This document shows, in pieces, positions 197-64,000 of a stretch of 64,000 nucleotides of DNA. This stretch comes from a virus (lineage: Duplodnaviria; Caudoviricetes). A program made the translations under genes and the position numbers. Where the stretch lies: the IMG/VR virus record IMGVR_UViG_3300010051_000550, positions 15,667-79,666 of that record. One strand, 5' to 3'. The notes beneath the pieces were generated by a model. It saw nothing but the letters and a program-made list of their open reading frames with translations, was not told where the DNA came from and made no database searches. Numbering within the stretch: the stretch's first letter is position 1; each line of letters starts with the position of its first letter.

Positions 197-198
197 TT

Positions 199-287: not shown

Positions 288-358
288 CGGGACGAGATGA
301 GACAGAGAGGCAGCGACCCGTTGCCGGGCCGCTGGAAAGGTGGGGATGGAGTTGGGGG

Positions 359-846: not shown

Positions 847-850
847 GGTT

Positions 851-24624: not shown

Positions 24625-24648
24625 TACGATTGCAATACATTCCGTGAG

Positions 24649-24687
24649 GGAAGAGTATGGAAAGGCCTCGAATTCGAGGCCTTTTTG
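24649..24687. terminator. GGAAGAGTATGGAAA plus palindromic terminator, copy 1
   Basis: AAAGGCCTCGAATTCGAGGCCTTT; related copy at 25956-25996. Confidence 0.85.
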
Positions 24688-24760
24688 TTGAGATTGTACG
24701 ATGATCAGAATGTCGATGAGCATCATTGATTAAGTTCTGGATGGACTATATCAATTATAA

Positions 24761-25189
24761 TTGACAGATCGAGTTCAAATGATCTATTATCCGGTTCCCT
24801 CAATCGAAATGAGCGCCCGGCAACATCGAGGGCGGGTGTCGAAAGTGCTAACTGGGCAAACAACCAATATGAGCGAAGAAAACAATGCCATCGAATTTAA
24901 TATAGTCTGGGAATCGGATAGACACCTCCAGACGATCTATGCCAATCACTTCTATATCACTCACGCTGGAGACGAGTTCTATTTGATGTTTGGCGAGCTA
25001 CCGTCTCCAAATATTGCGAATATGGCCCCGGACAAAATAAGAGACTATCTTGGCGACAGTCTTGAGATCAGGCCCTTGGTACGGCTGGCTATCGCGCCTC
25101 AAACGATGCTCAGGATAGCCGAGGCCATACAAACGAATGTGTCCAATTACATCGGGAAAAATATCGGTGGTAAGGACGATGAAGAATGA
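24761..25189 (+). CDS. DUF3467-like protein (probable start ATG ~24869)
   Basis: IYANHFYITHAGDEFYLMFG...VRLAIAPQTM..IAEAI..NV..Y. Confidence 0.65.
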   Translation: MTDRVQMIYYPVPSIEMSARQHRGRVSKVLTGQTTNMSEENNAIEFNIVWESDRHLQTIYANHFYITHAGDEFYLMFGELPSPNIANMAPDKIRDYLGDSLEIRPLVRLAIAPQTMLRIAEAIQTNVSNYIGKNIGGKDDEE

Positions 25190-25635
25190 GCACCCTAACT
25201 CTAAGAGTTGATCCATTTTCCGGAACCGGCCTAAATAGAGGACATCAGAAGATCGGCGATCTGCCAGCAATCTATCGCCGCAAGACAAATACAACGGCCC
25301 GCCCTAAGGTTACTCTGAGCGATGAGTCCAACTCGTCAACCGATACCGATTCAGGGGTCACATATCTTGTAGGACAAGGCGGGATCGACGGTGAATGGAA
25401 GCTCTTACAACCTCTCTCCATCGTCATAGAAATTGACGAGGACGGCGATTACATTGTGTCCGACAAAGTGTTCTCTAGATACGGTGTAGGTGCAACTGTG
25501 CTGGAGGCATTTAAGGACTTCATATCCGATCTAACCACGTACTACACGATTGTTGCTGAGTCCGCGGCGCACAATCCGGCCGCGGCAGCGTTGTTAGAGG
25601 AGATTCAACAGTACCTTCAACGAGCAGATGGCTAA
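25186..25635 (+). CDS. HicB-like antitoxin
   Basis: SIVIEIDEDGDYIVSD...YGVGATVLEAFKDF..L..YY, a partial RNase H fold pattern. Confidence 0.7.
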   Translation: MSTLTLRVDPFSGTGLNRGHQKIGDLPAIYRRKTNTTARPKVTLSDESNSSTDTDSGVTYLVGQGGIDGEWKLLQPLSIVIEIDEDGDYIVSDKVFSRYGVGATVLEAFKDFISDLTTYYTIVAESAAHNPAAAALLEEIQQYLQRADG

Positions 25636-25646
25636 ATACGTCTCAA

Positions 25647-25943
25647 ATGTTTACATCGAAACAGATTTTACGCACTTTGCGCACCAAGTTTAAATTTACC
25701 GACGTTAAAGGAAAGTATGCAGATATATACGTTACGCTTGAACTCCCTGGAGTTCGGCCAGTTGTAACAAAGGTTTCACATCCTAAGTCCCAAAGAAAAA
25801 CTGTCGGGAAACCCCTTGAGAACCTGATGGCAAAGCAGTTGCGCGTTGAGACACAGTACTTCCGTAACATGATCGGATGCACGCGCAGTCAGGAAGAGTA
25901 TTATGAGCGACTCAGGTCAGAGCAGTTCCCGCCTGTCGAGTAG
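25647..25943 (+). CDS. HicA-like toxin
   Basis: Basic 98-aa protein; TKVSH...LENLMAKQL.V....F..MIGC..S.EEYY pattern. Confidence 0.62.
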   Translation: MFTSKQILRTLRTKFKFTDVKGKYADIYVTLELPGVRPVVTKVSHPKSQRKTVGKPLENLMAKQLRVETQYFRNMIGCTRSQEEYYERLRSEQFPPVE

Positions 25944-25955
25944 GTTCCCTGCGAA

Positions 25956-25996
25956 GGAAGAGTATGGAAAAGCCCCTCGAAATCGAGGGGCTTCTT
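25956..25996. terminator. GGAAGAGTATGGAAA plus terminator, copy 2
   Basis: AAGCCCCTCGAAATCGAGGGGCTT. Confidence 0.85.
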
Positions 25997-26137
25997 GTTT
26001 ATTGGGGGCTAACCCACACCCCTCACGCCCGTGAGAGCAACCCATCGGCCGCAGGTTTCCGGTTCATCTGACGGTGTCTACCGTACCTGGGCGTTTAACG
26101 ACTCGATCTATGTAGTATCGCTTTGACGAGTTATTAA

Positions 26138-29100
26138 TCATGTTTTTGATAATCTCTGAAGTACGCGTTTTATGGGCGGGTTCTTGATGTTACGAGGGAT
26201 AATGGGCAAATCACCTTTTTGTAAGGCAGCAATATCCGGATCGTTTTCTCCTATCTCCCATGCGGACCGAATAATCAACTCATGCTTTCCAATTGCATAA
26301 TCCCAATCCGGATCAGGAAACTCTGTTTCCGAGATGTATTGTGCAGGTAGGAGGACATACCTTCCCACACTTTTATAGTTCTTCAAAAAACCATCTAGAT
26401 TATCGGAGTTCTGTGGCTCCATTGTATGAACCCGACTAACCAGATGTAATTGGTTGCCCTTTGATGGCCTAATAGCATTAAGGTTAGTAGAAATCATCAT
26501 TCTGTAATTAGCTTTTTTTCTTCTGTTAATCCCCCTAATAATCGAGATTCGCAACTGATCCTCTTCGTCAACACTGCCAAATCTGTCTATCCACTTTCTG
26601 AAAATATGTTTGGCTGGCTCTATATTCTCGAAGCCAAGGCCCAAAATCAGTACATCTTCAGGCAAAAAACCGAAACTGATTGCGGTCCATTTTGCCCTAT
26701 CCCAAAGCGGAATGTTAATAAGCGAAATTATCTTGCGATCTTTGTGTTTCAAATTATCGATTGCGAATGAGGACTCAGGAATTTCGCCTTTTCCTAATTC
26801 CAGAGTCCATTCCTCTCTTTCATCTATGCCCTCTGCTTCTAAGTGATGATCCCACGGGAGACTACGTTTCATGGGATAATCGATATCGCTTTTATCATCT
26901 TTCCAATCGGAAAGGCGGAATCTAGGCGAACTTCCGATCATATTCACAACCGCAATGTCAATGTCTGTAATAAGCATTGCTCGACCAATGCTATGCTCGC
27001 TTTTGGCTAGTCGCTCCGTGAATGAATCAGTATCAACAACCACACCAATTTGAAGAGTTGTGTGAAGTAGAAAGTCCAGTAGCCATGCACTGAAGTCGCC
27101 CCTCTCATCCTGATTAGTCCGTCTTAATGTCCGGGGATGCCTAATGCTTATGGTTTGGCCAGTAGCCGTTTCATCGGTTTCAAACTTTGGCAAGCCGGCA
27201 AGGAAATCAGATGGTTCAATCGAAATATGCAATTCAGAGCGATACGGCAATATTACACTTTCAAGGCTCGTTGCTAATAATGCTTCAAGCGCCCCTAAGA
27301 TCGTTTCGGCCAAATATATCGAGGTATGGTCATTGAATGCGTGAATTGACACCTCGCAACCGAGTACATTCGAGCGAAGAGTAACCTTCTTGCTCAAGAG
27401 CAAGTCAGGTTGGTACAACAAGTCGCGGCTGGCAGGTTGATTACGCCACCTTATGAATAAGTCACAAATTTCTTCAGGGCTGTCGTTCTCAGAAATGATA
27501 TTCTCTGAACGCAGGTATTCCTCATATCCCAGTACATACAACAGCGCCATCCGTGAGTAGGAAAGTTCCGCTCGCTCCAAGACTGACGGTAAGAAGTTGA
27601 GCCATTTTGAATCCCATATGCTTAGCCTCAAGAACTGTATCGCTAAGACCTGATCCTGAATAGTCCGTTCATTTATGAACTTCTCTTGTTTCTCCTCATT
27701 TAGGAGCAAGGATTTTGCCAACAATGAAGCTACTTCTATCCATTCAAGAACGTGAGGGATGCGACCCAGTTGTAACTCCAACCAAATTATCCTTTGGGTG
27801 AGGGCAAGTGTCTGCGGCAAGAGTTTTCCATATTTATGGTATGCTGACCAAGAAGAGTTGATAGCAATAAGGAGATTTGAACGTGCTGCCCATAATAATC
27901 CAACTCTTTCATACGCAGCTCCACAGGCAGCAACTGACATAATCCACTCCTCCATATGCTCCTCCACGGCCAATTCCTGTTGGGACTTTCCGAGGAGCCT
28001 GATAGCATCGTAATTCTTACCTGCTAGCAATTTTTGATACCCACGTGTAAGATGCAATTCTCCGGCTACGCTATCACCTGTTCTACGCTTAATGAATTCC
28101 TCGACCTCTTCCATCAATTCATCGTACTTAGCGTGAGACGCCAGAATCATTCCTAGCTCTTGAATGATATGAATTGTCGAGATAACAGGGTACTCGGCCA
28201 GCCCTTGGCTCTTCTTTAAAATACTTCCAAGCTGAGTGAGGATACCATTCACTCCTCGTCCCTTTGCCAACGCCTCGGCTAGTTCCATGAGTAATTTGAT
28301 TGTGCGTGCATGATGTGCATTATTCGGACGTTGGGAGCTCATTGCCAGGCGGTTGAGTTCGGCTTTAGCTGTCCTAGTACGTTTCGATAATTTTCTCCTG
28401 CTTGTACCGGGCCGGCCCCGCTGGACTTCAACATGAAGAAGTTGCCATAGATTGATCATCAGTTCGATATCAGTTGTCTGATTACTGCCTACTGCCAACT
28501 CCTCGACTCGTTCATACAAATTGTCAAACAACTCAATATCGCCGTACCACCAATATGCTGTCCAAGCTCTATTGTAAGCAATACGTAACATCTGCTGCCG
28601 ATGTCCAACTTTCATGGCAACATGCTCAGCACGTTCGAACCTAGCTTCGATCTCCATCCGAGAAAGTTCAAGCCCACGCGCAAGCAGTGCCACTTGCAAG
28701 CAGTCTTCCGCGAGTTGATACCTAACCCCCTTGTATCTCTCAGGGTCATTGATGCGCTCCTCGAGTTCCTTCATTTCTGCTTGACGTTTTGTGTCCTGTG
28801 ATCCCAACTCCCTCTTCGATAATTCACCGAAGCCTTCTATATGGAGCGATTCAATTGCAAGTCGTAACCGCTCGTGCTCGAAGACGCACTTTACGATCCA
28901 ATTTCGATCAAGTACCCGAACATCTATGCTGAACTCTCGGGACAAGGCATCTTCAACTTCAGCTCGGGTGCTGTCCTTTACAAATTGATTTGTTATGAAA
29001 TAAACAAGCTTGTAGCTTCGATTAGTCTTGGCGATTTTCTCGACGTCAGACCGAACCTTTGATCGCCAGTCTTTCTTGGCGCTGAAGGCAAATGCCCACC

Positions 29101-29476
29101 GTTCTTGACTAGCTTCCCTACCAACCCCCTCATACCACCCTAGCGCAAGCTCGTCCGCAACCGGGTAAGTCTCGGTATCCACTTTACTGTCCCCTCCACC
29201 AGTCGACCCGGTTTGAGGTATCAGGTTTGGACAAATTTCCTTTTCTGCCAATCTTCTGCAAAAGTGTTCGAATTCAATTTCTTGTTTTCGATGAGTAAGG
29301 GTTTCTAAGTGGTATTCGAAGCTCACTTGTGTCAATTGAAGTGTAGTTGAGACCCTAGTATCAGAAAAAAGTTCGGGTCGCCGAGCGCGCATGAAGTCTG
29401 AGGGACGCCACTGCGATCCCTGTTGGTGTTCAACATCATGCGATGATGCTTCTTCAGGTAAACTGGTTTTCGACAT
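26138..29476 (-). CDS. Low-GC 1112-aa protein: N-terminal PD-(D/E)xK nuclease-like domain plus TPR-like helical repeats; defence candidate
   Basis: EFEHFCRRL...GSTGGGDSKVD...AFSAKKDW..KV.SD; long helical region; no P-loop seen; GC far below the flanks. Confidence 0.7.
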   Translation of the reverse strand: MSKTSLPEEASSHDVEHQQGSQWRPSDFMRARRPELFSDTRVSTTLQLTQVSFEYHLETLTHRKQEIEFEHFCRRLAEKEICPNLIPQTGSTGGGDSKVDTETYPVADELALGWYEGVGREASQERWAFAFSAKKDWRSKVRSDVEKIAKTNRSYKLVYFITNQFVKDSTRAEVEDALSREFSIDVRVLDRNWIVKCVFEHERLRLAIESLHIEGFGELSKRELGSQDTKRQAEMKELEERINDPERYKGVRYQLAEDCLQVALLARGLELSRMEIEARFERAEHVAMKVGHRQQMLRIAYNRAWTAYWWYGDIELFDNLYERVEELAVGSNQTTDIELMINLWQLLHVEVQRGRPGTSRRKLSKRTRTAKAELNRLAMSSQRPNNAHHARTIKLLMELAEALAKGRGVNGILTQLGSILKKSQGLAEYPVISTIHIIQELGMILASHAKYDELMEEVEEFIKRRTGDSVAGELHLTRGYQKLLAGKNYDAIRLLGKSQQELAVEEHMEEWIMSVAACGAAYERVGLLWAARSNLLIAINSSWSAYHKYGKLLPQTLALTQRIIWLELQLGRIPHVLEWIEVASLLAKSLLLNEEKQEKFINERTIQDQVLAIQFLRLSIWDSKWLNFLPSVLERAELSYSRMALLYVLGYEEYLRSENIISENDSPEEICDLFIRWRNQPASRDLLYQPDLLLSKKVTLRSNVLGCEVSIHAFNDHTSIYLAETILGALEALLATSLESVILPYRSELHISIEPSDFLAGLPKFETDETATGQTISIRHPRTLRRTNQDERGDFSAWLLDFLLHTTLQIGVVVDTDSFTERLAKSEHSIGRAMLITDIDIAVVNMIGSSPRFRLSDWKDDKSDIDYPMKRSLPWDHHLEAEGIDEREEWTLELGKGEIPESSFAIDNLKHKDRKIISLINIPLWDRAKWTAISFGFLPEDVLILGLGFENIEPAKHIFRKWIDRFGSVDEEDQLRISIIRGINRRKKANYRMMISTNLNAIRPSKGNQLHLVSRVHTMEPQNSDNLDGFLKNYKSVGRYVLLPAQYISETEFPDPDWDYAIGKHELIIRSAWEIGENDPDIAALQKGDLPIIPRNIKNPPIKRVLQRLSKT

Positions 29477-29527
29477 ATTAGATCAGCCGCACTGCACACG
29501 CCTATGGGAGCATCGCCGGGGTGCTTT

Positions 29528-29543
29528 ATGTTGGCGCGCAAAC
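29528..29543. promoter_or_regulatory. Near-palindrome ATGTTGGCGCGCAAAC, copy 2 of 3
   Basis: Reverse complement is identical to 9484-9499. Confidence 0.7.
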
Positions 29544-29550
29544 GGATTTG

Positions 29551-30435
29551 TTAGTTCGTTTCGAAGCCGTGCGCAGCCAGGAAGTAGCGGCTGCAACTGG
29601 CGGTGTTACTAAACAGGTTGACGCTGAAGGGTAGCTCGGCGTTAGCGTCGACCTCCCCTTGGTCTGTGAAGGAACTGGGGGCAGCGATGGGCACCAGGTC
29701 GTCGTCGAAGCAGATGGCAGCGCCCTGAACAAGGTCCAGCGGGGCGTCGTTGGAGTTCAGCAGTATGCCGACGATATTGTTGCCGACGATATTGTGCTCA
29801 AGGACTTCGAGGTCGCGACGGGCAAGAAAGACGCTAGGGGCGTCTTGGGCTGTAACGCGGTAGTCGATGGTGGCGCCGTCCAGGTCAGTGTCCATGAACC
29901 CGACTGTACCGAAGGCGACGCTTCCAGGGGGCACGTAGGATGGGGCGAAGAGAAGCCCGGAGCCGGTGCCTAGGACGCCGCCGGCTTCGTCACGGGCGGT
30001 GGCAGAGATTTCGACGTTGTAGACGGGGGCGTCGACGTTGTTGCGGACGACAACGGAGATGCTACCGAATTCACTGGGCTGACCTTGGGCAATCACGGAG
30101 AGGCCGGGACCACCAGCGGGCAGATCGTCGGGGGTTATGTTGGCTGTGGCGAGGTAGGAAGTGGGTTCGATTGCGGCCGCGGGCGCTGGGGTAGGAGGCG
30201 GCGGTGCCGTCGGGGCGACTTCAACGAGGCGGGTGACCTCCACCTCAATCTCGACGAGGCGGGTGACTTCTACTTCAATCTCAACCAAGCGGGTAATTTC
30301 GATTTGCTCGGCTTGGGGGGCGGCCGTGGGCTGTCCGCCGCAGGCGCTAAGAAGATGGGTAGCGAGAGCGATTAGGGCAATGCGTTTCAATGGGAGCCTC
30401 CTGTTTGTATCGGATTGGCTCGGCCACGGGAACAC
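29551..30435 (-). CDS. Lipoprotein with EVTRLVE repeats and FxLYD-like Ig domains
   Basis: Lipobox LSAC; (IE)VEVTRLVE x3; VVVRNN...VYNVEISAT.RD..G.VLG. Confidence 0.78.
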   Translation of the reverse strand: MFPWPSQSDTNRRLPLKRIALIALATHLLSACGGQPTAAPQAEQIEITRLVEIEVEVTRLVEIEVEVTRLVEVAPTAPPPPTPAPAAAIEPTSYLATANITPDDLPAGGPGLSVIAQGQPSEFGSISVVVRNNVDAPVYNVEISATARDEAGGVLGTGSGLLFAPSYVPPGSVAFGTVGFMDTDLDGATIDYRVTAQDAPSVFLARRDLEVLEHNIVGNNIVGILLNSNDAPLDLVQGAAICFDDDLVPIAAPSSFTDQGEVDANAELPFSVNLFSNTASCSRYFLAAHGFETN

Positions 30436-30704
30436 GCGGCGGAGTATGAGGCGGACTATAAATGATAGGGTCTATCTGGTCAATCGTTTTGGCGAGGCGC
30501 GGCCGATGTGGATGGCGTGGGCTTGGTGGGCAGGGCGGTCCCGGCTGGATGTGGTTACCATGTACACTAGAGACGCGCGGGTTTTCATTCGGCCGGGGGA
30601 TGAGATCTGGCGGAATAGCGGGGATTGCGAGTTATAATGTGCGGAAGGGGTTGAAGTGTCGCGGTTTTGGTGGAGTTTGTTTTGTGCAAAAGGAGTGAAA
30701 CAAA

Positions 30705-53685: not shown

Positions 53686-54816
53686 TTATCCGCTTTCGCA
53701 ACCGATACCATCTCCATCCGAGTCAAACCGGTGGGGGTCGTCGCCCACCACCTGGAACCGGCGATGCGTGATGTCCCCACAATCCAGATCGGGCGGCGGC
53801 GGCGGAATGCAGACCGTTGGATAGGACGGGTGGCAATTTCCCGACGGCGGGGGCGGGGCGATGGGCACCGGATCGGGAGCGCGAACCGGCTCTGTCGGCA
53901 GCGGCGCGGCTACGAGAGCGCAGCCCCGGCCGGTACCCTCATTCATTAGCCCGTGCAGCGTCGCCGACATCGCCGTGTCGGGTGGGTAGTCTTTCGCTAC
54001 AGCCCAGCCGCCGGCCACCAGCGCGCCGTTGACGAATGTATTTCCAACGTAGACATAGCGCAGCAAGCGGCCGAAACGATCCGTCTCGCTGACATCCCGC
54101 ACCATCCGCACGGTCTGGCCGGCGACGAGCGCGGCGTTGGCCTGCGTCGCCTCTGAGCCGCAAGTCTGCCCTACCTCGGGCGTGTCCATGCCGATGTAGC
54201 GCACGCGGTACGAAGCGCCGCCCATGCTCACATCGATGGTGTCGCCGTCGATGACGGCCGTCACGACCGCCGACTCTCCTAGCGCTGCCGGCGCGCTCGT
54301 TGCCGTTGGCAGTACAGGTGGCTGTGTCGGTGGGACGCTGGGCGCAGTGGGCAGGGGGCGGGTGGGCGTGGAGGGAGCGAGCGTCGCCGTTGGGGGAATA
54401 CGCGTAGCTGTTGGCGCTGAGGTGTTCGTCGGCCTCTCCGTCGCTGTCGGCCGTGCGGTGTTGGTCGGCCGTGGTGTGTTCGTAGCGCGTCGGGTGGCAG
54501 TCGGCGGCTGGTCGGTTGGTTTGGCCTGCGCTGCAGCCGGTTCGTCGGTTAGCTCAGCCAGCTCCTCAGCTGGCTCGTCCTGGGCTACCGATTCGACCTG
54601 GGCAAATTCAGCGGTTGCCGCCAGGCCGGCAACTTCGGCCGTCGACTCTGCGGTAGGTAAGCTGGCGAAAGCGGAGCACATCGTCAGGCCACAGCACGCG
54701 AATAGGAGGGGAGCTGCCAGCCATATTACCTTGCCAAACGTGCCCTGTCCGCGAAACTGGCCCATCCACCAGTTACTGAAGCGCGAAAAGTGTACTATCA
54801 CAAGGCCTCCTGTCAA
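53686..54816 (-). CDS. Membrane-anchored thermonuclease (SNase) with a C-terminal Cys/Asp Ca-binding-like module
   Basis: VIDGDTI...VRYIGMDTPE...DRFGRLLRYVY...LVAGGWA; [19 protein letters not shown]...[15 protein letters not shown]. Confidence 0.9.
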   Translation of the reverse strand: MTGGLVIVHFSRFSNWWMGQFRGQGTFGKVIWLAAPLLFACCGLTMCSAFASLPTAESTAEVAGLAATAEFAQVESVAQDEPAEELAELTDEPAAAQAKPTDQPPTATRRATNTPRPTNTARPTATERPTNTSAPTATRIPPTATLAPSTPTRPLPTAPSVPPTQPPVLPTATSAPAALGESAVVTAVIDGDTIDVSMGGASYRVRYIGMDTPEVGQTCGSEATQANAALVAGQTVRMVRDVSETDRFGRLLRYVYVGNTFVNGALVAGGWAVAKDYPPDTAMSATLHGLMNEGTGRGCALVAAPLPTEPVRAPDPVPIAPPPPSGNCHPSYPTVCIPPPPPDLDCGDITHRRFQVVGDDPHRFDSDGDGIGCESG

Positions 54817-56135: not shown

Positions 56136-59100
56136 TCATCCTCCAATCCACAGGCCGTCGCCGGCGGTGCGGGCTTGGCCGAGGGCAGTTAGGGTTTGGA
56201 GCAGGTCGGTTACTTGGATTCGGCGAGCTTTTGTGGCTGGGCCGTCGAATGATGCGGCTATTTCGTCGGCTGTGACGGGGCGGGCGAAGGCGGCGAGGGC
56301 GGCACGCACGGCTGTGGCGCGGGCGGCGAGTTCGTTAGGCCAGGCGGGTTTGGCGGCGGGCGCGGATATGGCCTCCTCTTCCAGCAGCGTGGACTGGACG
56401 GCGGGGGCCGGCGCGTGGTCGGGGGCCTGGTATTCGGGGCGGAGCCAGCGCACGAGGCCGCGCGCTTCTTCGGCCGCGCGTTGGGCGTTGAGGGCGACGA
56501 GGCGCTCCAGTATCTGGTCGTCGCTCAAATCGGTTGGCCAGCCATAGGCTTCGAGGACGGACGCGTCGAGTTCGTCGTGGAGCTGGCGCAGGACGGAGAC
56601 GAGGCCTTGCTCGTGGATGCGACGGTCGGCGTCGGTTAGCGGCTCGCCGGCGCGCAGCTTGGCCAGGACGTTGTACATGTCGGTCAACGTGAGACGCGGG
56701 TGCTGGGCTTGCTGGCGCTTGCGGTGGGCGTCGAGTTGCTCGCCTAACTCGCGGATGCGGCCGCGTTTGGTGTAGGTAGGTTCGGGGAAGGGGAAGGTCT
56801 CAAAGCAGCGGGTTTTGACATACACCGAATCATTGCCCACGCCAAGCCAGGAACCAGCAGCAAGCGACCACGCTACGTGAACCCGACATGACAAGACGCC
56901 AAGATAGTAGGCATCGTCCAGTGCGATATTGACTAATTTATTGTCCGGCAATATAGCGGCATCGAGGAATGTGAAGAATCTATGCCGTGACGTCTCGACG
57001 GTAGCGATGTAGCGTGGCAGGCCGGCGAGGGCAGGGCGGAAGTTTCCGCGCGGTTCACCGTGAATCCACCAGTTGGTGCGATAGGAAGCGCGGTTGTTCT
57101 GGTCTCGCTCAGGTTTTACTCGTTCATAGACCCACTGGTAGACCTCGGGGAAGCGGAGACGCACCTCGTCAATTCCTAGCCCATATAGGTCGATGACCAT
57201 AACGCCGCGTGTCCTTCCCGTTAGATCGCGGCCGTGCCGGTAATTACGAATATGGGATTCCAGACCCGGAGTGCGTCCATACCCCAATGAACGCGCCTCA
57301 TCCGGAGTGACTATAAATCCTGACCCGATCAACTGGACACCGCGACTGCTCAAGTTCCCATTCGCCAGTAGAGGTGTCGCGCCTGAAACATCTGCCCCAA
57401 TCGTCAGATCGCTTTGTATCTTTCCTGTGCGCTCTTCCAGTGTCACCTCGACTTCGCCCGATTCCAAAGGCCGCTCGGCCGTCACTGCCTTCAGCACGCC
57501 ATCGGCTACTCCAACCGCGCCAACGGTCATCGAGATGCGCACGGCCGCGCCGTCGGATGAATCGACCCACGGGTGATCGGGGATGGCGAACAGCAGAGAG
57601 AGCGGGGGCGTGGCATCCATGTGGGCCTGCAGCACGCGGCGGTTGAACGTCTGGCGCAGGCTGTTGGTGGTGATGAGGCCGAAGCGGCGGATGGCTCCGG
57701 CGCGGGCCAGGCCGGCCGCCTTGTGCCACCAGTACATGACGTAGTCGGCCGAGGCGGGCACGACCGGATAGGTGGCGCGGATGGCCTTGGTATAGCCGTC
57801 GCCCAGCGCGTCGCGCATCCGCGCCGTGCCGATGAACGGCGGGTTGCCGATCACGAACTCGGCCGCGGGCCACTCGGCCGGGCGCGGCTTGATGTAGCGG
57901 TAGACAGGGACGCGGCTGGTCTCGTCGGGCACTTGCTCGCCGGTGACGGGATGGGGGCGGGTGGTGCGGCCATCCCAGCGCGAGACGGGGCGGCCGTCGG
58001 CGTCGAGTAGCGGCTCCACCGCATCCCAGTCGAGGACGGCGTCGCGGCGCTCGATGTTGTGGAAGTCACGGATGATAGGTTCGGCCGGCAGCACGTCGCC
58101 GCGCGTGCGCAGGTGCCATTGCAGGTAGCCGATCCACAGCACCAGCTCGGCGATGGCGGCCGCGCGGGGGTTGATCTCGATGCCCAGAAGCTGCTGCGGC
58201 GTGACCATGACGCTCTCGATTTCGAGCGACAGTTGGCCGTGGCCCAGGTCGCGCAAGGTGTTGAGCACCTCGCCTTCCAGCCGCTTCAGGTGCTCAAGCG
58301 TGACGTAGAGGAAATTGCCGGTGCCGCAGGCGGGGTCGAGCACGCGCGTGGCGGCCAGACGGCGGTGGAACGCGGCGACTTCGGCGATGGCCTTAGCTTC
58401 CGCGCCGGACTCGGCGAGCTGGGCAGCGGCGGCCTGCACGCCGTCCCACTCGGCGCGCAGCGGCTCGATGATGGTGGGGATGACCAGCCGCTCGACGTAG
58501 GCTCGTGGGGTGTAGTGCGCTCCCAGCTTGTGGCGCTCGACCGGGTCCAAAGCACGCTCCAGCAGGGCGCCGAAGATGGCCGGTTCCACGTCGCGCCAGT
58601 CGGCGCGGGCGGCCTCGATGAGCAGTTGAATCTGCACCTCGTCGAGCGGCAAGGCATCCTGCTCGGCGAAGAGGCCGCCGTTGAAGCGGGGGATGGCTCG
58701 CCGCAGGATGACGGAGAAGCCGCCGGCGTTCATGGTTCCCCACAGGTGTTCCAGCATCGGCTTGAAGCTGGCCGGGTCGTGGCGCAGGTCTTTCAGCAGT
58801 TCGGTGAAGGCTTTCTCCGGCAGCAGGCGCACGTCTTCGGCGAACATGGTGAAGAGGCAGCGCATCAGGAAGCTGGCGACCTTCTCCGGCTCGTAGGACT
58901 TCTCCAATGACACGGCCAGCGCGGCCAGGCGGCCGGCGATCTCGCGGGTCACGCGAGCGGTGCGGCGGGCGGGGTCGAGGCTGAGCGGATCGTCCCAGAC
59001 GGCGCGGAGCAGCTCACGAGTGGTCTCGTCGCGCAGGGCTTCGAGGGGGAAGCGGTAGCTGTGCGGATCGGGGAAGGGGGTGTAGTTGCCGCCGCTGCGG

Positions 59101-59582
59101 GTGAACTCGCTGTGGAGTTCGATGGTGTTGCCGACGTCGACCACGATAAGGAAGGGGGGACGGCCGCCGTCTTGTAGTTCGGCCGGCGGCAAGCTGCGGG
59201 CGTAGGTCTGGGCTTGGCGGCGGGCTTTTTCGAGGGCGGTGTCCCACGTGGAAGTGCCACGGGCGGCCGTGCCGCGCTTGCGCTTTTTGGGCGTGGCGGC
59301 GAGGGGCGCAGGTTCGGGTGTATCGCTGCCCTGCTTGGCTTCAAGAACAAATCGGCCGCGCCGGTAGAGGTCGATGAAGCCGGTTGTGCCGTGTGGGAGG
59401 GGGACGGCTTTCTCGAAGACGTAGGCGTTGTCGGCCGCGTCGGGGGTGGAAGGGTCTGGCTTGTCAACCCCGAGCAGCTCGCACAGTTCGACAAGGAAGA
59501 GCTGGTAGTTGGCGCGTTCGGCCGCGCCGGATGCGCGCCAGCGAGTGATGAAGTCGTTGATTGGTTTCGATGTGCCCGTCAT
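56136..59582 (-). CDS. MmeI-like type IIL fused restriction-modification enzyme (N6-adenine methyltransferase)
   Basis: [12 protein letters not shown]; IDLY...VLEAKQG; LGAHYTP; [11 protein letters not shown]; IGNPPF; TRD-like C-terminus. Confidence 0.92.
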
Positions 59583-60187
59583 TTCTCGCAGCCGACTCCA
59601 TCCTTATCACTATCAAACCTATGGGGATCTGGTGGGAGCACGGTAAAGTTATGCCATTGAATGTCGTCGCAGTTAAGGTCCGGGGGCGGGGGTGGAATGC
59701 AATGATCCGGGTAAGAAGGATGGCACAGCTTAGGGTCTCTGGTTGGCGTGGCGGTGGGCCTTGGCGTCTTCGTGGGTGTTGCTGTCGGTGTCCTGGTGGG
59801 CGTTGCGGTTGCTGTGCTGGTCGGCGTCAGCGTCGCGGTGCTGGTGGGCGTTGAAGAGGGCGTGACCGTTTGGGTTGGCGTGTTGGAGGCAGTCGGTGTA
59901 GCCGTCGGCGTGGCGGTTAATGTGGCCGTTGCTGCGCTGGTTTCTGTGGCCGTTGGCGCGGCCGTGGTGGCTGTCATCGTGGCCGTGGCCTCCAGTGTTG
60001 ATACGGGCGTTGAGCCGGGTAGGGTGGGGGTTCCCGGCGGGAGTGGGGCGGTTCTGGCGTCGAGCACAGCCGGCAGGTAGACGGAGGCCTCTTCCTGGTC
60101 GACGGCTACCAGCAGACGGCTGCCGCCAAGGGAGAACAGCAGAAAGCTGATGAGCATGAATATCCATCTGTGCGATGGCTTTCGCAT
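59579..60187 (-). CDS. Secreted Thr/Pro-rich protein with the same C-terminal Cys/Asp module as 53686-54816
   Basis: Signal peptide; YLPAVL; [19 protein letters not shown]...[15 protein letters not shown]; ATGA overlap with the R-M gene. Confidence 0.8.
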
Positions 60188-60482: not shown

Positions 60483-60511
60483 TTGACGCGAGATCGGCCG
60501 CATGTTATGAT
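60483..60511 (+). promoter_or_regulatory. Near-consensus sigma70 promoter
   Basis: TTGACG-17-TATGAT with an extended -10 TG. Confidence 0.85.
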
Positions 60512-60516
60512 GTAGT

Positions 60517-60597
60517 TGGTCTTGTCTCTGAAACTCAGAGATGAAAGAAAGCCCGGATCGCCAGGTTCACTACTGGCGGTCTGGGCCTTCTGTTTTT
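60517..60597 (+). ncRNA. Putative ~80-nt sRNA or leader RNA
   Basis: Starts at the predicted TSS with TGGTCTTGTCTC; hairpin CTCTGA-AAC-TCAGAG; 14-bp terminator stem at 60551-60586 plus T run. Confidence 0.5.
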
Positions 60598-60714
60598 AGG
60601 AGATATGCGGGATTGGCAGGGACGGGACCTAGGCCGCGAGACAAGACCACCAGCAGCCAAAAAGACACAACAATTTAACGCCACAGTGGTCTTGTCGCCG
60701 GAACGCGAGGCGAT

Positions 60715-61134
60715 ATGAAGGATTTGCAGTCTGTCCTGAAACTGTTGATTGTGGCATTGGTAGCAGCCGTGGTGCTGGGCGCCGTCCTGAGCGCGCGGGC
60801 GACCGCGCGGGAGTACTACGCCTACCGGTCGATGGTCGCGCCCAAAACGATCCATCAGATGGTGCTGGAGATGGAAGCGGCCGATGAGCCGGAGCGCGGC
60901 CCTGCCCTGCTCTATGGGGCCGGTTTGCTGGCGCTGGCGGGACTGGTCTTCGGCGGGATGCTGTTCGCCATGCACGGCGGGACGGCGCTGCTGAAGGAGC
61001 GGCGGCTCGGCCGCAAGAAGAGCCGGACGCGCCGACCGGCGTCGCTGCCGGCTATCCATACCGCCCCACTGCTGCGGGAGGCATTTCCCCCAAATGAAAA
61101 CTATGCGAACGATAGCGACGGCCATCGCGGGTAG
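60715..61134 (+). CDS. Two-TM membrane protein, possibly spread (Spd)-like
   Basis: Two hydrophobic helices and a basic tail; overlaps the ATPase gene. Confidence 0.65.
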   Translation: MKDLQSVLKLLIVALVAAVVLGAVLSARATAREYYAYRSMVAPKTIHQMVLEMEAADEPERGPALLYGAGLLALAGLVFGGMLFAMHGGTALLKERRLGRKKSRTRRPASLPAIHTAPLLREAFPPNENYANDSDGHRG

Positions 61135-62788
61135 CGTGGCGCTGCTGCTGCTGGTTGGGTGCGGCGGCTCCCCTGCCCCTCCCCCGCCGGACACGAGCGG
61201 GCTGGCGGTGCTTGACGCCCAGGCGACGCTGGCGGTCTGGTCGGCGCGGGAGACGGCGGTGGCCGAGGAAACGCGCCGGGCGCAGCAAGCCACCGTGGAC
61301 GCGGCGAATGCGGCCGTCCGAGCGACGGAGAGCGCTGCGGGTGCGACGGCGCAGGCGGTCCAGGCTGCCGGCGCAACCGTAGCGGCGCACGGCACGGCCG
61401 TCGCGGTGGAGGCCACAGCCACAGCCGGCGCGGGGTATATGGTGGCGACGGCGCAGTCAGCAGCGGCGACGGCGACGCGCGATGGGCTGGCGGCCGAGCA
61501 ACTGCGGCTGGGCATAGCGGCAACGGCGACGGCTGACGCGGCGGCGCTGGCCTTTCAGGCAGCGCAGGCGGAAAAGGCGCTGGCGGCGCGGCAGGCGGAG
61601 ATCGACAGGGAGTTGATGTGGAACCGGCTGCTGCCGTGGCTGGCAGGGATTGCGGCGGTGGGCGCGGCGGTGGCGATGTCGCTGTTTGCCGGGACGTGGG
61701 CGGTGGAGCGGTTGCGTCGGAACCGGCCGCAGCAGGCGGGGGATGTGTGGGTGATGGTGGGACCGAGCGGGCCGGTGGCGTTGAATCGGCCGCCGGCGCA
61801 GATTCCTGCTTCGCTGCCGCGCGCCCCGATTACCGTCAGTCCGGGGCCGACGCCGGCGGCCGATACACCTATCTCCCTGCCCGTCCCCCGGCGAGGCTGC
61901 TGGCTGGTGGCCGGGATGCGCGGCAGCGGCAAGACGACGGCCATCCATGCGGTGCTGCGCGCCCGCACCGGGACGCGCGTCGTCCTCGATCCTCGTGACT
62001 GGGAAGGCAAGTGGCCGTCTGACACGCGAGTCATCGGCCGTGGCGGAGATTACGATGCGATTGAGGCATTCCTGGCAGAGGAGATGGAGGCCATTCTGGA
62101 CGAGCGCGGCCGTCAGTTGGGCGACGGCGTGCCCAGCCGGACGCTTCAGGCTGACCCGATTTTCGTGATCATCGACGAGCTGCCAGCCATCGTTGAGCGT
62201 CTCGGCGATAGGTGCATGACCGCGCCTCGGCGCTGGATGTATGAGATGCGCCAGATGGGCGGCGACCTGCTGCTGTCGACCCAGAGCCTGCGCGTGAAGG
62301 CGATGGGCCTCGAGAACTACGGGGATGTGCGCCAGATGTTTGACTTCACGCTGGCGTTGGGCGATGTGGCGAGGGAAAAGTTCCCCCGCCTGGCTGAGGG
62401 GATGCAGCGGCCGGCGGTACTGTCTACGTTATCCAGCGCCCGGCCGGTAGTCATCCCCTGGATGGAGCAAGGGTCACGCCATGCCGTTGACGCCGGAGAC
62501 CTTGATGGGGATGGAGACGACGACGTGATCCTGCTGCCGGGCGGGCCGCTGTTTTTGGCCCCCACCCCACAAGCGCCGAAGGCCGACCCGCGCAACATGC
62601 GGCCCGAGGACGTGGCACGCATTCGGGCGCTGAAGGCGGCTCACTGGTCGCAACGCGCGATTGAGATGGAGATGTTCGGCTACACGGGCGGGGCGGCGTG
62701 GGAGGCCGTGCGCGAGGCGCTGGACGGAGATGGGCATGGCTGGCCGGCGGCGGCAGCCTGGCCCGCGCCCGGTCAGGTGCTACGGTAG
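61094..62788 (+). CDS. FtsK/TraB-like membrane P-loop ATPase with lipobox, Ala-rich stalk, TM helix and C-terminal HTH
   Basis: LVGC lipobox; LVAGMRGSGKTT Walker A; FVIIDELP Walker B; RQMG...LLLSTQS; C-terminal RIRAL...WSQRAIE..MFG. Confidence 0.78.
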   Translation: MKTMRTIATAIAGSVALLLLVGCGGSPAPPPPDTSGLAVLDAQATLAVWSARETAVAEETRRAQQATVDAANAAVRATESAAGATAQAVQAAGATVAAHGTAVAVEATATAGAGYMVATAQSAAATATRDGLAAEQLRLGIAATATADAAALAFQAAQAEKALAARQAEIDRELMWNRLLPWLAGIAAVGAAVAMSLFAGTWAVERLRRNRPQQAGDVWVMVGPSGPVALNRPPAQIPASLPRAPITVSPGPTPAADTPISLPVPRRGCWLVAGMRGSGKTTAIHAVLRARTGTRVVLDPRDWEGKWPSDTRVIGRGGDYDAIEAFLAEEMEAILDERGRQLGDGVPSRTLQADPIFVIIDELPAIVERLGDRCMTAPRRWMYEMRQMGGDLLLSTQSLRVKAMGLENYGDVRQMFDFTLALGDVAREKFPRLAEGMQRPAVLSTLSSARPVVIPWMEQGSRHAVDAGDLDGDGDDDVILLPGGPLFLAPTPQAPKADPRNMRPEDVARIRALKAAHWSQRAIEMEMFGYTGGAAWEAVREALDGDGHGWPAAAAWPAPGQVLR

Positions 62789-62797
62789 CAGTAGCAT

Positions 62798-62825
62798 AGC
62801 GCTACGTAGCGCGCTACGTAGCGCT
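62798..62825. repeat. 28-bp perfect palindrome
   Basis: AGCGCTACGTAGCGCGCTACGTAGCGCT, made of two overlapping GCGCTACGTAGCGC palindromes. Confidence 0.92.
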
Positions 62826-62902
62826 TGGCCGGACTTGCGCGGCCGATTCGTCGGAGATTCTGACGGGAATTTCTGTAGGACGCATTTGAGACGGTGCGTC
62901 CC

Positions 62903-62946
62903 AAGTTGTCACAAGCGGTTATAAGTTGTCACAACCGCTTATGACA
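62903..62946. promoter_or_regulatory. Centromere/operator-like repeats upstream of parA
   Basis: AAGTTGTCACAA x2 with 20-bp period; AAGCGGTT/AACCGCTT inverted pair. Confidence 0.65.
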
Positions 62947-62961
62947 TGTTGAGAAGTTGAG

Positions 62962-63840
62962 GTGATTCACATGAGTTCGGAGATCAAGACCACGGTAATC
63001 GCCGTGTCGACCGAGAAAGGCGGCACGGGCAAGACGACGACGGCCTGCAACCTGGCGGCCGGGCTGGCGCTGAAGGAGAAGTTCGCCGGCGGCCAGGGCG
63101 TGGTTGTTCTGGTCGACGTTGACCCGCAGGGGGACTCGGCCAAGTTTTGGGGAGTACACGGCCGCGTCTATCACGAGGAGCGCAATCCGGACGGGCCGTG
63201 CATCAGCGACGTGCTGCTCGGCGACGCGGCCGTCGGCGATGCGCTGATCCCGCTGCGGGATAATCTGTACCTGCTGCCGGCCAGCGCCCGGCTGAAGGAT
63301 GCCGAGTTCGAGCTGATCACTCGCGAGGTGCTGGCAGCCGGCGGGCGTGCGCGGCGGAAGCATGTGCCGCTGCCGGACGTGTTGAAGGCGCGGCTGCAGC
63401 CGCTGATGGGCGTGGCGCGGTGGATCGTCATCGACTGCGCGCCGCACATGGGGCCGCTGGAACCGGCCGTTTTCAATTTCGCGGACTGGGTTGTGGCGCC
63501 GGTGCAGCTGCAGTATCTCAGCGCGGCCGGGGTGTCGCAGCATACGGAGACGCTCGACGGTCATATCCTGCGGGGCGAGGCCAAGAGCAAGCTGGCTTTC
63601 ATCCTGCCGACGATGGTGTCGGTGCGCGATGGGGAGCCGTGGCAGAACGGCGAGCGTCAGATGCTGGAGGCGGTGGTGAAGGCGTACGGGAAGAGCAAGG
63701 TGCTCGCGCCGGTGCCGGACAGCGTGATCGTGGAGCAGAGTCCGGGCGTGCACCAGTCGATCTTTGAGTTCGGCCCGGCGTCGGCCGGCGCAGTGCGGGC
63801 TTACGCGAACCTGGTGGAGAAGGTGTACCATGTCGGATGA
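62962..63840 (+). CDS. parA: ParA/Soj-family partition ATPase
   Basis: KGGTGKTTTACNLA, VDVDPQGD, LLPAS, IDCAP, VVAPVQ. Confidence 0.93.
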   Translation: MIHMSSEIKTTVIAVSTEKGGTGKTTTACNLAAGLALKEKFAGGQGVVVLVDVDPQGDSAKFWGVHGRVYHEERNPDGPCISDVLLGDAAVGDALIPLRDNLYLLPASARLKDAEFELITREVLAAGGRARRKHVPLPDVLKARLQPLMGVARWIVIDCAPHMGPLEPAVFNFADWVVAPVQLQYLSAAGVSQHTETLDGHILRGEAKSKLAFILPTMVSVRDGEPWQNGERQMLEAVVKAYGKSKVLAPVPDSVIVEQSPGVHQSIFEFGPASAGAVRAYANLVEKVYHVG

Positions 63841-64000
63841 TTTCCTGAGCAAGCTGGCGGAGGGCGGCGGGCGGAAGGCCGGCCGCGTGGAGATGGACAG
63901 CCCGGTGCTGGCCAGTGCCGGGGCGCGGGTTCGGACCTCCTACCCCAAGTCGCGGCGGGCGGGGCAGTACGTGCGTGTGACGGCGACGCTGCTGCCGGAA
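63830..64000 (+). CDS. ParA partner, possibly ribbon-helix-helix/ParG-like; truncated by the window edge
   Basis: Overlaps the parA stop; MSDDFLSKL... disordered N-terminus, then VRVTATLLPE. Confidence 0.55.
   Translation, partial: MSDDFLSKLAEGGGRKAGRVEMDSPVLASAGARVRTSYPKSRRAGQYVRVTATLLPE

What the first reader, a model, noticed from the sequence alone, without database searches (positions are those of the whole stretch)
60715..64000. Phage-plasmid with a TraB/Spd-like DNA transfer module: possible cell-to-cell spread within filaments
Seen: a two-TM protein overlapping a membrane FtsK-like ATPase (lipobox, Ala-rich stalk, TM, Walker A/B, C-terminal HTH), repeats directly downstream, then parA and its partner, all in a complete-looking virion-encoding genome with no integrase in view. 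Established: Streptomyces plasmids move dsDNA with one FtsK-like TraB that binds adjacent clt repeats through a C-terminal wHTH, and Spd membrane proteins spread it through the mycelium. Inference: a tailed phage maintained as a plasmid that can also translocate its genome between cells of a multicellular filament without lysis. The lipobox and stalk are unusual for TraB.
Basis: partly seen in the sequence, partly recalled or inferred. Interest (0 to 1): 0.88.

Follow-up and report, generated by a model that had tools for sequence, protein, structure and literature searches.

The report
Membrane FtsK-like ATPase cassette in prophage
An integrated tailed prophage of a filamentous Chloroflexota bacterium carries a previously undescribed membrane-anchored FtsK-like ATPase that it shares with small integrative elements and cyanobacterial plasmids; this ATPase may move element DNA between cells, but the phage is not a plasmid and the nearby repeats belong to its partition gene.

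Summary
The sequence features are real: a 2-TM ORF overlaps a 564-aa protein with an invariant lipobox Cys, a 35%-Ala helical stalk, one TM helix, an FtsK-type P-loop domain and a C-terminal 3-helix HTH. parA and a truncated small partner gene follow.

The ATPase belongs to the FtsK/SpoIIIE/TraB/TcpA assemblage, not to VirD4 or VirB4. It forms its own family, and no curated model reaches its cut-off for it. Its nearest outside relatives are proteins on Nostoc and Pseudanabaena plasmids.

The same 2-TM + ATPase pair sits in small chromosomal integrative elements of Chloroflexota MAGs, next to a DUF3854 protein and a serine recombinase. This ties it to mobile-element DNA handling and gives the transfer idea some independent support.

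- The record is an IMG/VR provirus. A tyrosine integrase lies at contig base 1, and a syntenic relative lies inside an 807-kb chromosomal contig.
- The downstream repeats follow parA, not the ATPase, in relatives. They look like a type Ib operator/centromere.
- The 2-TM protein has no Spd homology, and the HTH has no wing.

Best reading (about 0.35): a TraB-analogous dsDNA pump of an integrating temperate siphovirus. Function is untested. An earlier scan note on this window had already flagged the palindrome.

The parts
60483..60704 (+). Promoter-like site (TTGACG-17-TATGAT with upstream TG), a hairpin plus T-run at 60551-60596, and three copies of the motif TGGTCTTGTC (60517, 60687; inverted at 60638). 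This is the likely control region of the cassette.
   Evidence: Consensus matches only; function not shown.
60715..61134 (+). 139-aa two-TM membrane protein with a basic cytoplasmic tail. It overlaps the ATPase gene by 41 nt. Homologues precede the ATPase in related phages and in chromosomal integrative elements.
   Evidence: (alignment A3, conserved GAGLLAL...GGT..LK..RL.RK block). No Pfam, PHROG or NCBIfam family.
61094..62788 (+). 564-aa ATPase: lipobox signal (Cys23), Ala-rich helical hairpin stalk (31-186), TM helix (about 181-204), FtsK-type P-loop domain (about 262-455), acidic DLDGDGDDD linker, and a three-helix HTH (504-544).
62798..62825 (.). 28-bp perfect palindrome (2 x GCGCTACGTAGC) 10 nt after the ATPase stop codon. 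It is partly conserved in the 83%-identical relative L029. Possible roles: hairpin/terminator, or part of the par site.
   Evidence: Role not resolved.
62879..62954 (.). Hairpin GGACGCA...TGCGTCC followed by two 20-bp direct repeats AAGTTGTCACAAsCGsTTAT with internal dyads, ending 8 nt before the parA RBS-like GAGGTG (start codon at 62962). Candidate parA operator/centromere.
   Evidence: Relatives carry different iterons at the same place before parA.
62962..63840 (+). parA: a 292-aa ParA/MinD-type ATPase with Walker A at residues 18-25 and no N-terminal HTH (type Ib-like).
63830..64000 (+). 5' part (57 codons) of the small ParA partner, cut by the contig end. The full 124-aa homologue in L029 has an RHH-like VRVTATLLPETLEEL pattern.
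   Evidence: The RHH assignment is from the sequence pattern only; no family hit.

Best explanation
The window end holds two separate modules of an integrating temperate siphovirus of a Chloroflexota (Anaerolineae-like) host.

Module 1 is a translationally coupled pair: a 2-TM protein and a new-family FtsK-type ATPase. The ATPase N-terminus is lipid-anchored outside the cell. An Ala-rich helical hairpin of about 10 nm projects from the membrane, one TM helix crosses it, and the motor plus an HTH sit in the cytoplasm. By analogy with FtsK, TraB and TcpA, I infer that it forms a hexameric ring that loads on element DNA through the HTH and pumps dsDNA at or through the membrane or septum. The most likely use is conjugation-like passage of the excised or replicating element into a neighbouring cell, as Streptomyces TraB does. 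The same cassette serves small DUF3854 + serine-recombinase integrative elements that have no virion genes.

Module 2 is a type Ib-like parA plus small partner, with its own operator/centromere repeats upstream of parA.

Shown: the architecture, the FtsK-superfamily fold, conservation of the cassette across phages and integrative elements, and the integrated state.

Inferred: the hexamer, DNA as the substrate, the direction of pumping, and intercellular transfer.
For: - FtsK-family signatures and matches: the Walker A block LVAGMRGSGKT resembles FtsK's LVAGTTGSGKS. The STQS motif aligns with FtsK ATQRPS. Profile against PDB sequences gives FtsK 2e-8. Foldseek gives the FtsK motor on dsDNA at 1e-7 and the conjugation coupling protein TcpA at 1e-6.
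- The family profile scores FtsK 36.8, a Streptomyces TraB-like protein 30.7 and pIJ101 Tra 28.5 bits, but F TraD and TraC about 0.
- Lipobox Cys23, the TM helix and the HTH motif are conserved across 25 homologues.
- The 2-TM + ATPase pair recurs in Chloroflexota chromosomes between a DUF3854 protein and a large serine recombinase. One case lies inside a 4.27-Mb contig. The shared cassette from the T4CP-like gene to the recombinase spans about 12 kb in L021 and L022.
- ATPase + HTH homologues lie on the 5.6-kb Nostoc plasmid pCC7120zeta beside a DUF3854-like 780-aa ORF, and on Pseudanabaena pPg_01 near a DUF3854 gene.
- The phage records contain no VirB4/AAA_10 or VirD4 family gene, so the motor would have to act without its own T4SS.
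- Precedent: a single FtsK-like TraB suffices for dsDNA transfer in mycelial actinomycetes (PMC3429521). SpdB2 homologues occur in some actinophages, where the authors suggest they might assist phage DNA spreading (PMC4447253).
Against: - There is no functional data.
- The family is not nearer to TraB than to FtsK, and the tree is poorly resolved with long branches.
- No Pfam or NCBIfam model reaches its cut-off.
- The HTH has no wing and no similarity to the FtsK gamma or TraB DNA-binding domains.
- No repeat array is conserved next to the ATPase gene in relatives.
- Some integrative elements also carry a T4CP-like gene and a weak PrgI-like ORF. The ATPase could therefore be one part of a larger or trans-supplied apparatus.
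- A tailed phage already has a route between cells.
- The filamentous habit of the hosts is taken from MAG names (Anaerolineae, Ardenticatenia, Ca. Trichofilum) and was not tested. The link between the family and filamentous taxa could not be tested because the genome search gave no taxonomy.
Confidence: 0.35

Rival explanations
1. One reading: an extrachromosomal phage-plasmid with no integrase, whose TraB-like pump loads on clt-like repeats just downstream of its gene and works with an Spd-like 2-TM protein to spread the plasmid prophage through filaments.
For: - FtsK-like motor + HTH + membrane anchor.
- parA and partner are present.
- Related viral contigs G001-G004 (53-89% complete) show no tyrosine or serine recombinase.
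- The 83% relative carries Cas6/Csf3 genes of the plasmid-typical type IV kind.
Against: - IMG/VR calls the record a provirus, and the left boundary lies exactly at the stop codon of a tyrosine recombinase.
- The identical ATPase is recorded on a 140,398-bp contig, which is larger than the roughly 97-kb genome implied by 82% completeness.
- A syntenic Int-RepO-sulfatase-ParB arm lies inside an 807-kb Anaerolineales contig.
- The repeats travel with parA in relatives.
- The 2-TM protein has no Spd family hit.
- No wing is predicted in the HTH.
Confidence: 0.07
2. Coupling-protein reading: the ATPase is a TcpA/ConQ-type (FtsK-like) type IV coupling protein. It docks element DNA to a T4SS supplied by the same or by a co-resident conjugative element, so phage and integrative elements are mobilisable rather than self-transmissible.
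For: - TcpA is among the best fold matches (1.4e-6, target-normalised TM 0.42).
- PGAP names the Pseudanabaena homologue a T4SS conjugative DNA transfer family protein.
- In L021/L022/L025 the cassette lies near a T4CP-like gene, and in L022 near a weak PrgI-like ORF.
- If the signal peptide were not cleaved, the topology would be the two-TM, C-in topology of coupling proteins.
Against: - The profile gives only 16.5 bits to TcpA and about 0 to TraD.
- No VirB4/AAA_10, VirD4 or DUF3854 gene was found in the phage records.
- No relaxase was recognised. Dedicated relaxase models were not run, and many ORFs have no family.
- The L022 T4CP-like protein has no canonical Walker A.
- The invariant lipobox Cys and the 150-aa stalk are not features of coupling proteins.
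Confidence: 0.15
3. Segregation reading: the pump clears or delivers copies of the excised, replicating element across closing septa of the filament. It works alongside ParA and its partner, so that daughter cells keep the element. This is an element-specific FtsK/SpoIIIE.
For: - FtsK is the best-scoring named reference in the profile comparison (36.8 bits). It is also the top Foldseek match and second to EssC in the PDB profile search.
- The ATPase gene lies within 0.2-6 kb of parA in the window and in six related phage contigs: L002, L005, L009, L010, L013 and L029.
- An HTH could give element-specific loading, as KOPS does for FtsK gamma (established knowledge of FtsK).
Against: - The integrative elements and the 5.6-kb Nostoc plasmid carry the ATPase without parA.
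- Host genomes appear to have their own FtsK: about 700-aa frames match only the motor part of the profile.
- The external stalk has no obvious use in segregation.
- The prophage is integrated, so it is segregated with the chromosome.
Confidence: 0.15
4. Conflict or secretion reading: the membrane ATPase is a prophage-encoded exclusion or defence factor, or an EssC-like protein exporter, rather than a mover of the element's own DNA.
For: - It lies in the accessory arm next to a type IIG restriction-modification gene (1594 bits) and a secreted nuclease.
- EssC and EccC are among the best matches.
- There is a weak PADLOC mad8 hit (2.7e-5 for the window protein, 1.4e-8 for the L022 homologue).
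Against: - The PADLOC hit covers only the P-loop in the window protein.
- No other component of a known defence system lies adjacent.
- There are no FHA domains or tandem ATPase domains as in EssC.
- A conserved cytoplasmic HTH points to DNA.
- The cassette is kept in minimal plasmids and integrative elements, where a backbone function is more likely.
Confidence: 0.1

Closest known systems
Streptomyces TraB / Tra (pSVH1, pIJ101) and AICE Tra proteins
   Same: - Single membrane-associated FtsK-type motor with a C-terminal DNA-binding domain, encoded on mobile elements of multicellular monoderm bacteria.
- Companion small membrane proteins.
- Relatives sit in compact integrase + replication-gene + Tra-type elements that resemble AICEs in layout (PMC3429521).
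   Different: - Separate family: 28-31 bits to the family profile, and no BLAST hit to any Streptomyces plasmid.
- Lipobox plus 150-aa external Ala-rich hairpin.
- Plain three-helix HTH.
- No clt-type repeat array tied to the gene.
- Here the gene is carried by a tailed prophage.
FtsK / SpoIIIE chromosome translocases
   Same: Best-scoring named reference in the profile comparison and the top Foldseek match. Shares the GxxGSGKS, DE and TQ motifs and a motor followed by an HTH-type domain.
   Different: No alpha domain or gamma winged helix. One TM helix plus a lipid anchor instead of four TM helices. Encoded on mobile elements and sparsely distributed.
TcpA / ConQ / Orf21-type FtsK-like coupling proteins of Gram-positive conjugation
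   Same: N-terminal membrane anchor plus an FtsK-like ATPase of similar size. Significant fold match.
   Different: No cognate T4SS ATPases detected in the phage and no relaxase recognised. Weak profile score (16.5 bits). Has an extra HTH and an external stalk.
FtsK-like proteins of actinophages, and SpdB2 homologues in actinophages
   Same: Precedent for tailed phages of multicellular hosts carrying FtsK-like or spread-type genes of unknown role (PMC11536984; bioRxiv 10.1101/2024.02.16.580700; PMC4447253).
   Different: No tblastn match of this ATPase in 50,697 deposited phage genomes. Different host phylum and different architecture.
TdtA of Thermus ICEth1 (transjugation)
   Same: A hexameric membrane-bound ATPase of the FtsK-HerA superfamily on a small integrative element, which pushes DNA out of the donor (PMC5365140).
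   Different: TdtA is HerA-like with a NurA partner. This protein is FtsK-like with an HTH and a 2-TM partner.

Membership tests
FtsK/SpoIIIE superfamily (PF01580 and kin) | RecA-type motor with Walker A GxxGSGK[ST], Walker B DE and a TQ(R/S) motif, detectable by profile and by fold | tested here: met
   PDB profile search: FtsK 2e-8, EssC 8e-9. Foldseek: FtsK motor 1.2e-7. Motifs are visible in alignment A1.
FtsK/SpoIIIE superfamily (PF01580 and kin) | Score above Pfam's curated cut-off for PF01580 | tested here: not met
   No PF01580 hit in hmmscan. 9.7 bits against a 24-bit cut-off. Some homologues carry precomputed PF01580 hits, those inspected being 'faint'.
Streptomyces TraB / AICE Tra | Groups with TraB/Tra rather than with other FtsK-like proteins | tested here: not met
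   Profile bits: FtsK 36.8, TraB-like 30.7, pIJ101 Tra 28.5. In the tree the family forms its own clade with cyanobacterial plasmid proteins, and the references sit on long branches. No tblastn hit to Streptomyces plasmids.
Streptomyces TraB / AICE Tra | C-terminal winged HTH that reads 8-bp repeats (clt) at the 3' end of the gene | tested here: not met
   The model has three helices and no strands. There is no significant PDB match; the weak ones are resolvase/transposase-type HTHs. No alignment to the TraB or FtsK C-termini. The repeats follow parA in relatives. DNA binding itself is not testable here.
Streptomyces TraB / AICE Tra | Sufficient alone for dsDNA transfer; spd genes give intramycelial spread | not testable with these tools
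   Needs mating or spreading assays. The 2-TM protein has no Spd family match.
VirD4-type coupling proteins / VirB4 ATPases | Profile similarity to T4SS-DNA_transf / TrwB or to VirB4 families | tested here: not met
   About 0 bits to F TraD and TraC. No PF02534 or PF12846 match over the cut-off in the phage records.
Phage-plasmid (P1, N15, SSU5 kinds) | Virion genes together with plasmid-type partition and replication genes | tested here: met
   Portal, major head and major tail proteins. parA plus partner. RepO-like gene.
Phage-plasmid (P1, N15, SSU5 kinds) | Maintained extrachromosomally, not integrated | tested here: not met
   IMG/VR class is provirus. Integrase at the cut boundary. Parent contig of 140,398 bp. 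A syntenic relative lies inside an 807-kb contig. Read-level proof could not be obtained.
Type Ib partition system | Short ParA without an N-terminal HTH, a small centromere-binding partner downstream, and iterated sites upstream of parA | tested here: met
   Walker A at residues 18-25 of a 292-aa ParA. A 124-aa partner in L029. Repeats at 62903-62942, with different iterons at the same position in L002 and L005. Binding is not testable here.
Bacterial lipoprotein | Signal peptide ending in a lipobox L-[ASV]-[GA]-C | tested here: met
   LLVGC in the window protein. Cys is invariant in 25 of 25 and Gly follows it in 17 of 17 close homologues. Lipidation itself is not testable here.

The most novel reading that the evidence does not exclude
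Temperate tailed phages of filamentous Chloroflexota carry a single-protein, TraB-analogous dsDNA conjugation motor. This would be a hexamer whose twelve external helices span the wall. The motor is shared with AICE-like integrative elements and small cyanobacterial plasmids. The excised prophage could then lysogenise neighbouring cells of a filament without making virions. This would extend FtsK-type conjugation beyond Actinomycetales and into viruses.
Probability: 0.18. Interest if true: 0.85.

Novelty: new variant of a known kind. Interest (0 to 1): 0.6.

Why it matters
A review of the field states that FtsK-type (TraB) conjugation was detected almost exclusively in Actinomycetales and suggests it is adapted to hyphal growth (PMC3429521).

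This report describes a distinct FtsK-like family with an invariant lipobox and an external helical stalk. It occurs in phages, in compact integrative elements of Chloroflexota MAGs, and on plasmids of Nostoc and Pseudanabaena. If it moves DNA, it would be a second, independent case of single-motor DNA transfer in multicellular bacteria, and the first carried by a tailed virus. It would also give a concrete target for testing virion-free spread of prophages.

Even if the function proves different, the cassette defines a family that no curated model captures, and a candidate class of small integrative elements built from a DUF3854 protein, this ATPase and a serine recombinase.

Tried and rejected
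- **Curated libraries.** Pfam, PHROGs, NCBIfam and PADLOC give no hit above cut-off for the ATPase or the 2-TM protein. The weak PHROG terminase hit (0.0046) and the PADLOC mad8 hit cover only the P-loop region, so I disregarded them.
- **Similarity to deposited genomes.** tblastn against deposited phages found nothing. Against plasmids it found only two cyanobacterial records.
- **Circularity.** There is no terminal direct or inverted repeat in the contig, and no tRNA genes.
- **Recovering the parent contig or the junction.** Exact look-ups of the ATPase and ParA proteins were empty or withheld.
- **Link to filamentous taxa.** A 401-genome Chloroflexota sample gave 21 matches at E <= 1e-10, mostly partial or host FtsK, but no taxonomy was returned. 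The link to filamentous classes could not be tested.
- **Phylogeny.** The tree separates the family from FtsK/TraB/TcpA but has long branches and an unreliable root. I use it only to say that the family is not inside TraB.
- **att site.** I first read the divergence of L042, L043 and L045 downstream of the integrase as an att site. L045 in fact diverges where a CRISPR array begins, and L042 diverges inside a phage HTH gene next to a Cas3-like/Cas6 module. No att core is claimed.
- **Accessions.** SCP2 (NC_003904) is not in the plasmid collection.
- **Complex prediction** was not used. No binding claim is made beyond the gene overlap and co-conservation.

Full report
**What is there**

The window is the last 64 kb of a single 79,666-bp record. 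The record has no terminal repeats.

At 60715-61134 lies a 139-aa ORF with two hydrophobic segments and a basic tail. It overlaps by 41 nt a 564-aa ORF at 61094-62788. The larger protein reads, in order:
- a signal peptide ending LLVGC;
- a 35%-Ala stretch (residues 31-186), which AlphaFold models as two long helices (37-107 and 115-209) joined by a short turn;
- a TM segment at about 181-204, followed by RLRRNRP;
- a P-loop domain with GMRGSGKT, IIDE and STQS motifs, at pLDDT about 90;
- an acidic DLDGDGDDD linker;
- three short helices at 504-544.

In an alignment of 25 homologues the lipobox Cys, the TM helix, the Walker motifs and the C-terminal GWS...GYxGG motif are conserved, and Cys23 is invariant.

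Downstream lie a 28-bp perfect palindrome (62798-62825), a small hairpin, and two 20-bp direct repeats (62903-62942). All are unique in the contig. parA follows at 62962-63840. A small partner gene starts at 63830 and is cut by the contig end.

The rest of the window encodes a siphovirus: portal, major head, major tail, a Dit-like protein, a 2444-aa ORF that is probably the tape measure (judged from size and position only), a beta-helix protein and a GH25 lysin. The sequence-level observation therefore holds.

**What the ATPase is**

No curated family reaches its cut-off. Other evidence places it clearly:
- A profile of the family finds EssC, FtsK and EccC among solved structures at 1e-8.
- The model's best fold matches are the FtsK motor on dsDNA, EssC/EccC and the FtsK-like coupling protein TcpA.
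- Against references taken from annotated records, the family profile gives:

| Reference | Bits |
|---|---|
| Pseudanabaena pPg_01 protein | 152 |
| Nostoc pCC7120zeta protein | 118 |
| E. coli FtsK | 36.8 |
| Streptomyces TraB-like protein | 30.7 |
| pELF FtsK-like protein | 29.6 |
| pIJ101 Tra | 28.5 |
| TcpA | 16.5 |
| F TraD, F TraC, Chloroflexota T4CP-like proteins | about 0 |

A quick maximum-likelihood tree keeps the family as its own group, with the two cyanobacterial proteins next to it. FtsK, TraB and TcpA lie apart on long branches, and the root is unreliable.

The ATPase therefore groups with translocase-type FtsK relatives, not with VirD4, VirB4 or HerA. It is not a TraB. The C-terminal domain, folded alone, is a bare three-helix HTH without a wing. 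It has no significant PDB match and no alignment to FtsK gamma or to the TraB C-terminus.

**Where else the cassette occurs**

About 50 homologues exist in metagenomes, most without any name.

- *Related phage contigs.* The order RHH gene, ~130-aa 2-TM gene, ATPase, ~115-aa gene, (a few genes), parA, ~110-aa partner recurs next to the GH25 lysin arm and a DnaB replication arm.
- *GTDB genomes.* All eleven hits are Chloroflexota MAGs (Anaerolineae, Ardenticatenia, Ca. Trichofilum, Ktedonobacteraceae).
- *Integrative elements.* In seven of those loci the context is not a phage. It is a compact cassette: DUF3854 protein (~760 aa), membrane wHTH protein, ~145-aa 2-TM protein, ATPase, ~150-aa protein, large serine recombinase, then host genes. 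Three loci also have a T4CP-like gene lacking a canonical Walker A. One case lies inside a 4.27-Mb contig. The 2-TM proteins of phage and integrative elements are homologous.
- *Cyanobacterial plasmids.* The only plasmid hits are in Nostoc and Pseudanabaena. The 5.6-kb pCC7120zeta consists of little more than a 780-aa ORF with DUF3854-region similarity, an RHH gene, small ORFs and the ATPase + HTH homologue.

This pattern of a backbone gene in minimal mobile elements is the strongest evidence that the protein handles element DNA. It is also what gives the transfer idea independent support.

The phage records themselves contain no VirB4/AAA_10, VirD4 or DUF3854 genes.

**Integrated, not a plasmid**

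- The contig begins with a 328-aa tyrosine recombinase gene (Phage_integrase plus SAM-like domains) whose stop codon is base 1. That is a gene-boundary cut.
- IMG/VR classes the record as a provirus, 82% complete.
- The identical ATPase is recorded on a 140,398-bp contig. That is larger than the roughly 97-kb genome implied by the completeness estimate, so about 60 kb must be non-phage DNA.
- A 61%-identical integrase with the same neighbours (orf152, RepO-like, sulfatase, ParB-HTH protein) lies inside an 807-kb Anaerolineales contig. In a 26-kb contig the same integrase protein is joined through about 7.4 kb of phage genes to the partner and parA. The ParA arm and the Int arm are therefore contiguous in the phage genome.

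Two caveats apply. I could not see the host flank itself. Related fragments G001-G004 show no recombinase in the 53-89% that is covered.

**The repeats**

In L029 (83% identical ATPase) the same two repeat sets are present in diverged form.

In L002 and L005, parA lies about 2 kb and about 0.7 kb from the ATPase gene. Each has its own iterons immediately upstream of parA: GTTTAAA repeats in one, ACAATGTGT plus a GTGCGC dyad in the other. Nothing comparable follows the ATPase stop codon.

A ParA with Walker A at residue 18, a small partner with an RHH-like pattern, and sites upstream of parA is the type Ib layout. I therefore assign 62879-62954 to parA control or centromere function. The 28-bp palindrome stays unresolved: it could be a hairpin/terminator, part of the par site, or a loading site.

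**Mechanism and odds**

The topology implies an external lipid anchor, an antiparallel helical hairpin about 70 residues (about 10 nm) long, one TM helix, and a cytoplasmic motor plus HTH. If the motor forms the hexamer usual for this superfamily, twelve external helices would surround its axis. That is an attractive geometry for a conduit through the wall or septum, but it is inferred, not shown.

| Reading | Odds |
|---|---|
| TraB-analogous intercellular dsDNA transfer of the excised element | 0.35 |
| Coupling protein for a T4SS supplied in trans | 0.15 |
| Element-specific septal segregation pump | 0.15 |
| Exclusion, defence or protein secretion | 0.10 |
| None of these | remainder |

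**Comparison and novelty**

FtsK-like genes are common in actinophages, with unknown role (PMC11536984; bioRxiv 10.1101/2024.02.16.580700). SpdB2 homologues in some actinophages have been suggested to help phage DNA spreading (PMC4447253). FtsK-type conjugation was reported almost exclusively in Actinomycetales (PMC3429521).

The present family has no match in deposited phages. It has a distinctive lipobox-stalk architecture and occurs in other phyla. I rate it a new variant of a known kind, with moderate to high interest that rests on an untested function.

Noticed in passing
G000 contig 1-987 (-), 15.7 kb before the window start (L001:1-987): Tyrosine recombinase (XerC/D-like, Phage_integrase + SAM-like domains) whose stop codon is contig base 1. 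Its roughly 90 homologues lie mostly on 1-3-kb contigs, which suggests assemblies break beside it.
   Followed up: yes
L045:8999-9262; L042:9397-12318; L029:5282-7242: Phage-borne CRISPR-Cas in this phage group. Four ~37-nt repeats with a 73-nt period start about 150 bp after the integrase stop codon. One relative has a Cas3-like helicase and Cas6 next to the integrase. Another has Cas6 and Csf3 (type IV-like) after parA.
   Followed up: partly
L019-L026, e.g. L022:1983-13748 (inside a 4.27-Mb contig): Compact integrative elements of Chloroflexota MAGs: (T4CP-like gene without a canonical Walker A), ~500-aa protein, DUF3854 protein, membrane wHTH protein, 2-TM protein, FtsK-like ATPase and a large serine recombinase, abutting host genes. 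The layout recalls AICEs. One genome has three ATPase copies.
   Followed up: partly
L030 (Nostoc pCC7120zeta) 4691-5584 joined to 1-1449, and 2957-4129: A 780-aa ORF runs across the record start and is missing from the gene table. It has DUF3854-region similarity (E 3e-6 to 8e-8) to the Chloroflexota and Pseudanabaena proteins. Together with the ATPase + HTH homologue it makes up most of this 5.6-kb plasmid.
   Followed up: partly
window 60483-60704: Near-consensus promoter, then a hairpin and T-run, and three copies of TGGTCTTGTC (one inverted) ahead of the 2-TM gene.
   Followed up: no
window 56136-59582 (-): Intact MmeI-like type IIG restriction-modification gene (PADLOC REase_MTase_IIG, 1594 bits), convergent with the lysis arm and divergent from the ATPase cassette.
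   Followed up: partly
window 53686-54816 (-) and 59579-60187 (-): A staphylococcal-nuclease-domain protein, and a Thr/Pro-rich protein with an N-terminal hydrophobic segment. Both end in a weak Excalibur-like C-terminal motif (below Pfam's cut-off). The nuclease also matches a PADLOC candidate, 'SNc+LTD' (1.6e-16).
   Followed up: no
window 24000-30500: Low-GC island (44-52% against about 63%) with leftward 1112-aa and 294-aa ORFs that have no Pfam or PADLOC family.
   Followed up: no
window 62471-62530 (ATPase residues about 460-479): A conserved acidic DLDGDGDDDVILLPG motif between the motor and the HTH (weak FG-GAP_3 hit, 0.0023). It resembles a calcium-binding loop, but is predicted to be cytoplasmic.
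   Followed up: no
P0027 / P0030 (NCBI, 630 aa): Two homologues keep the lipobox, stalk, TM helix and C-terminal HTH but carry a very different, longer P-loop domain. This suggests domain replacement within the family.
   Followed up: no
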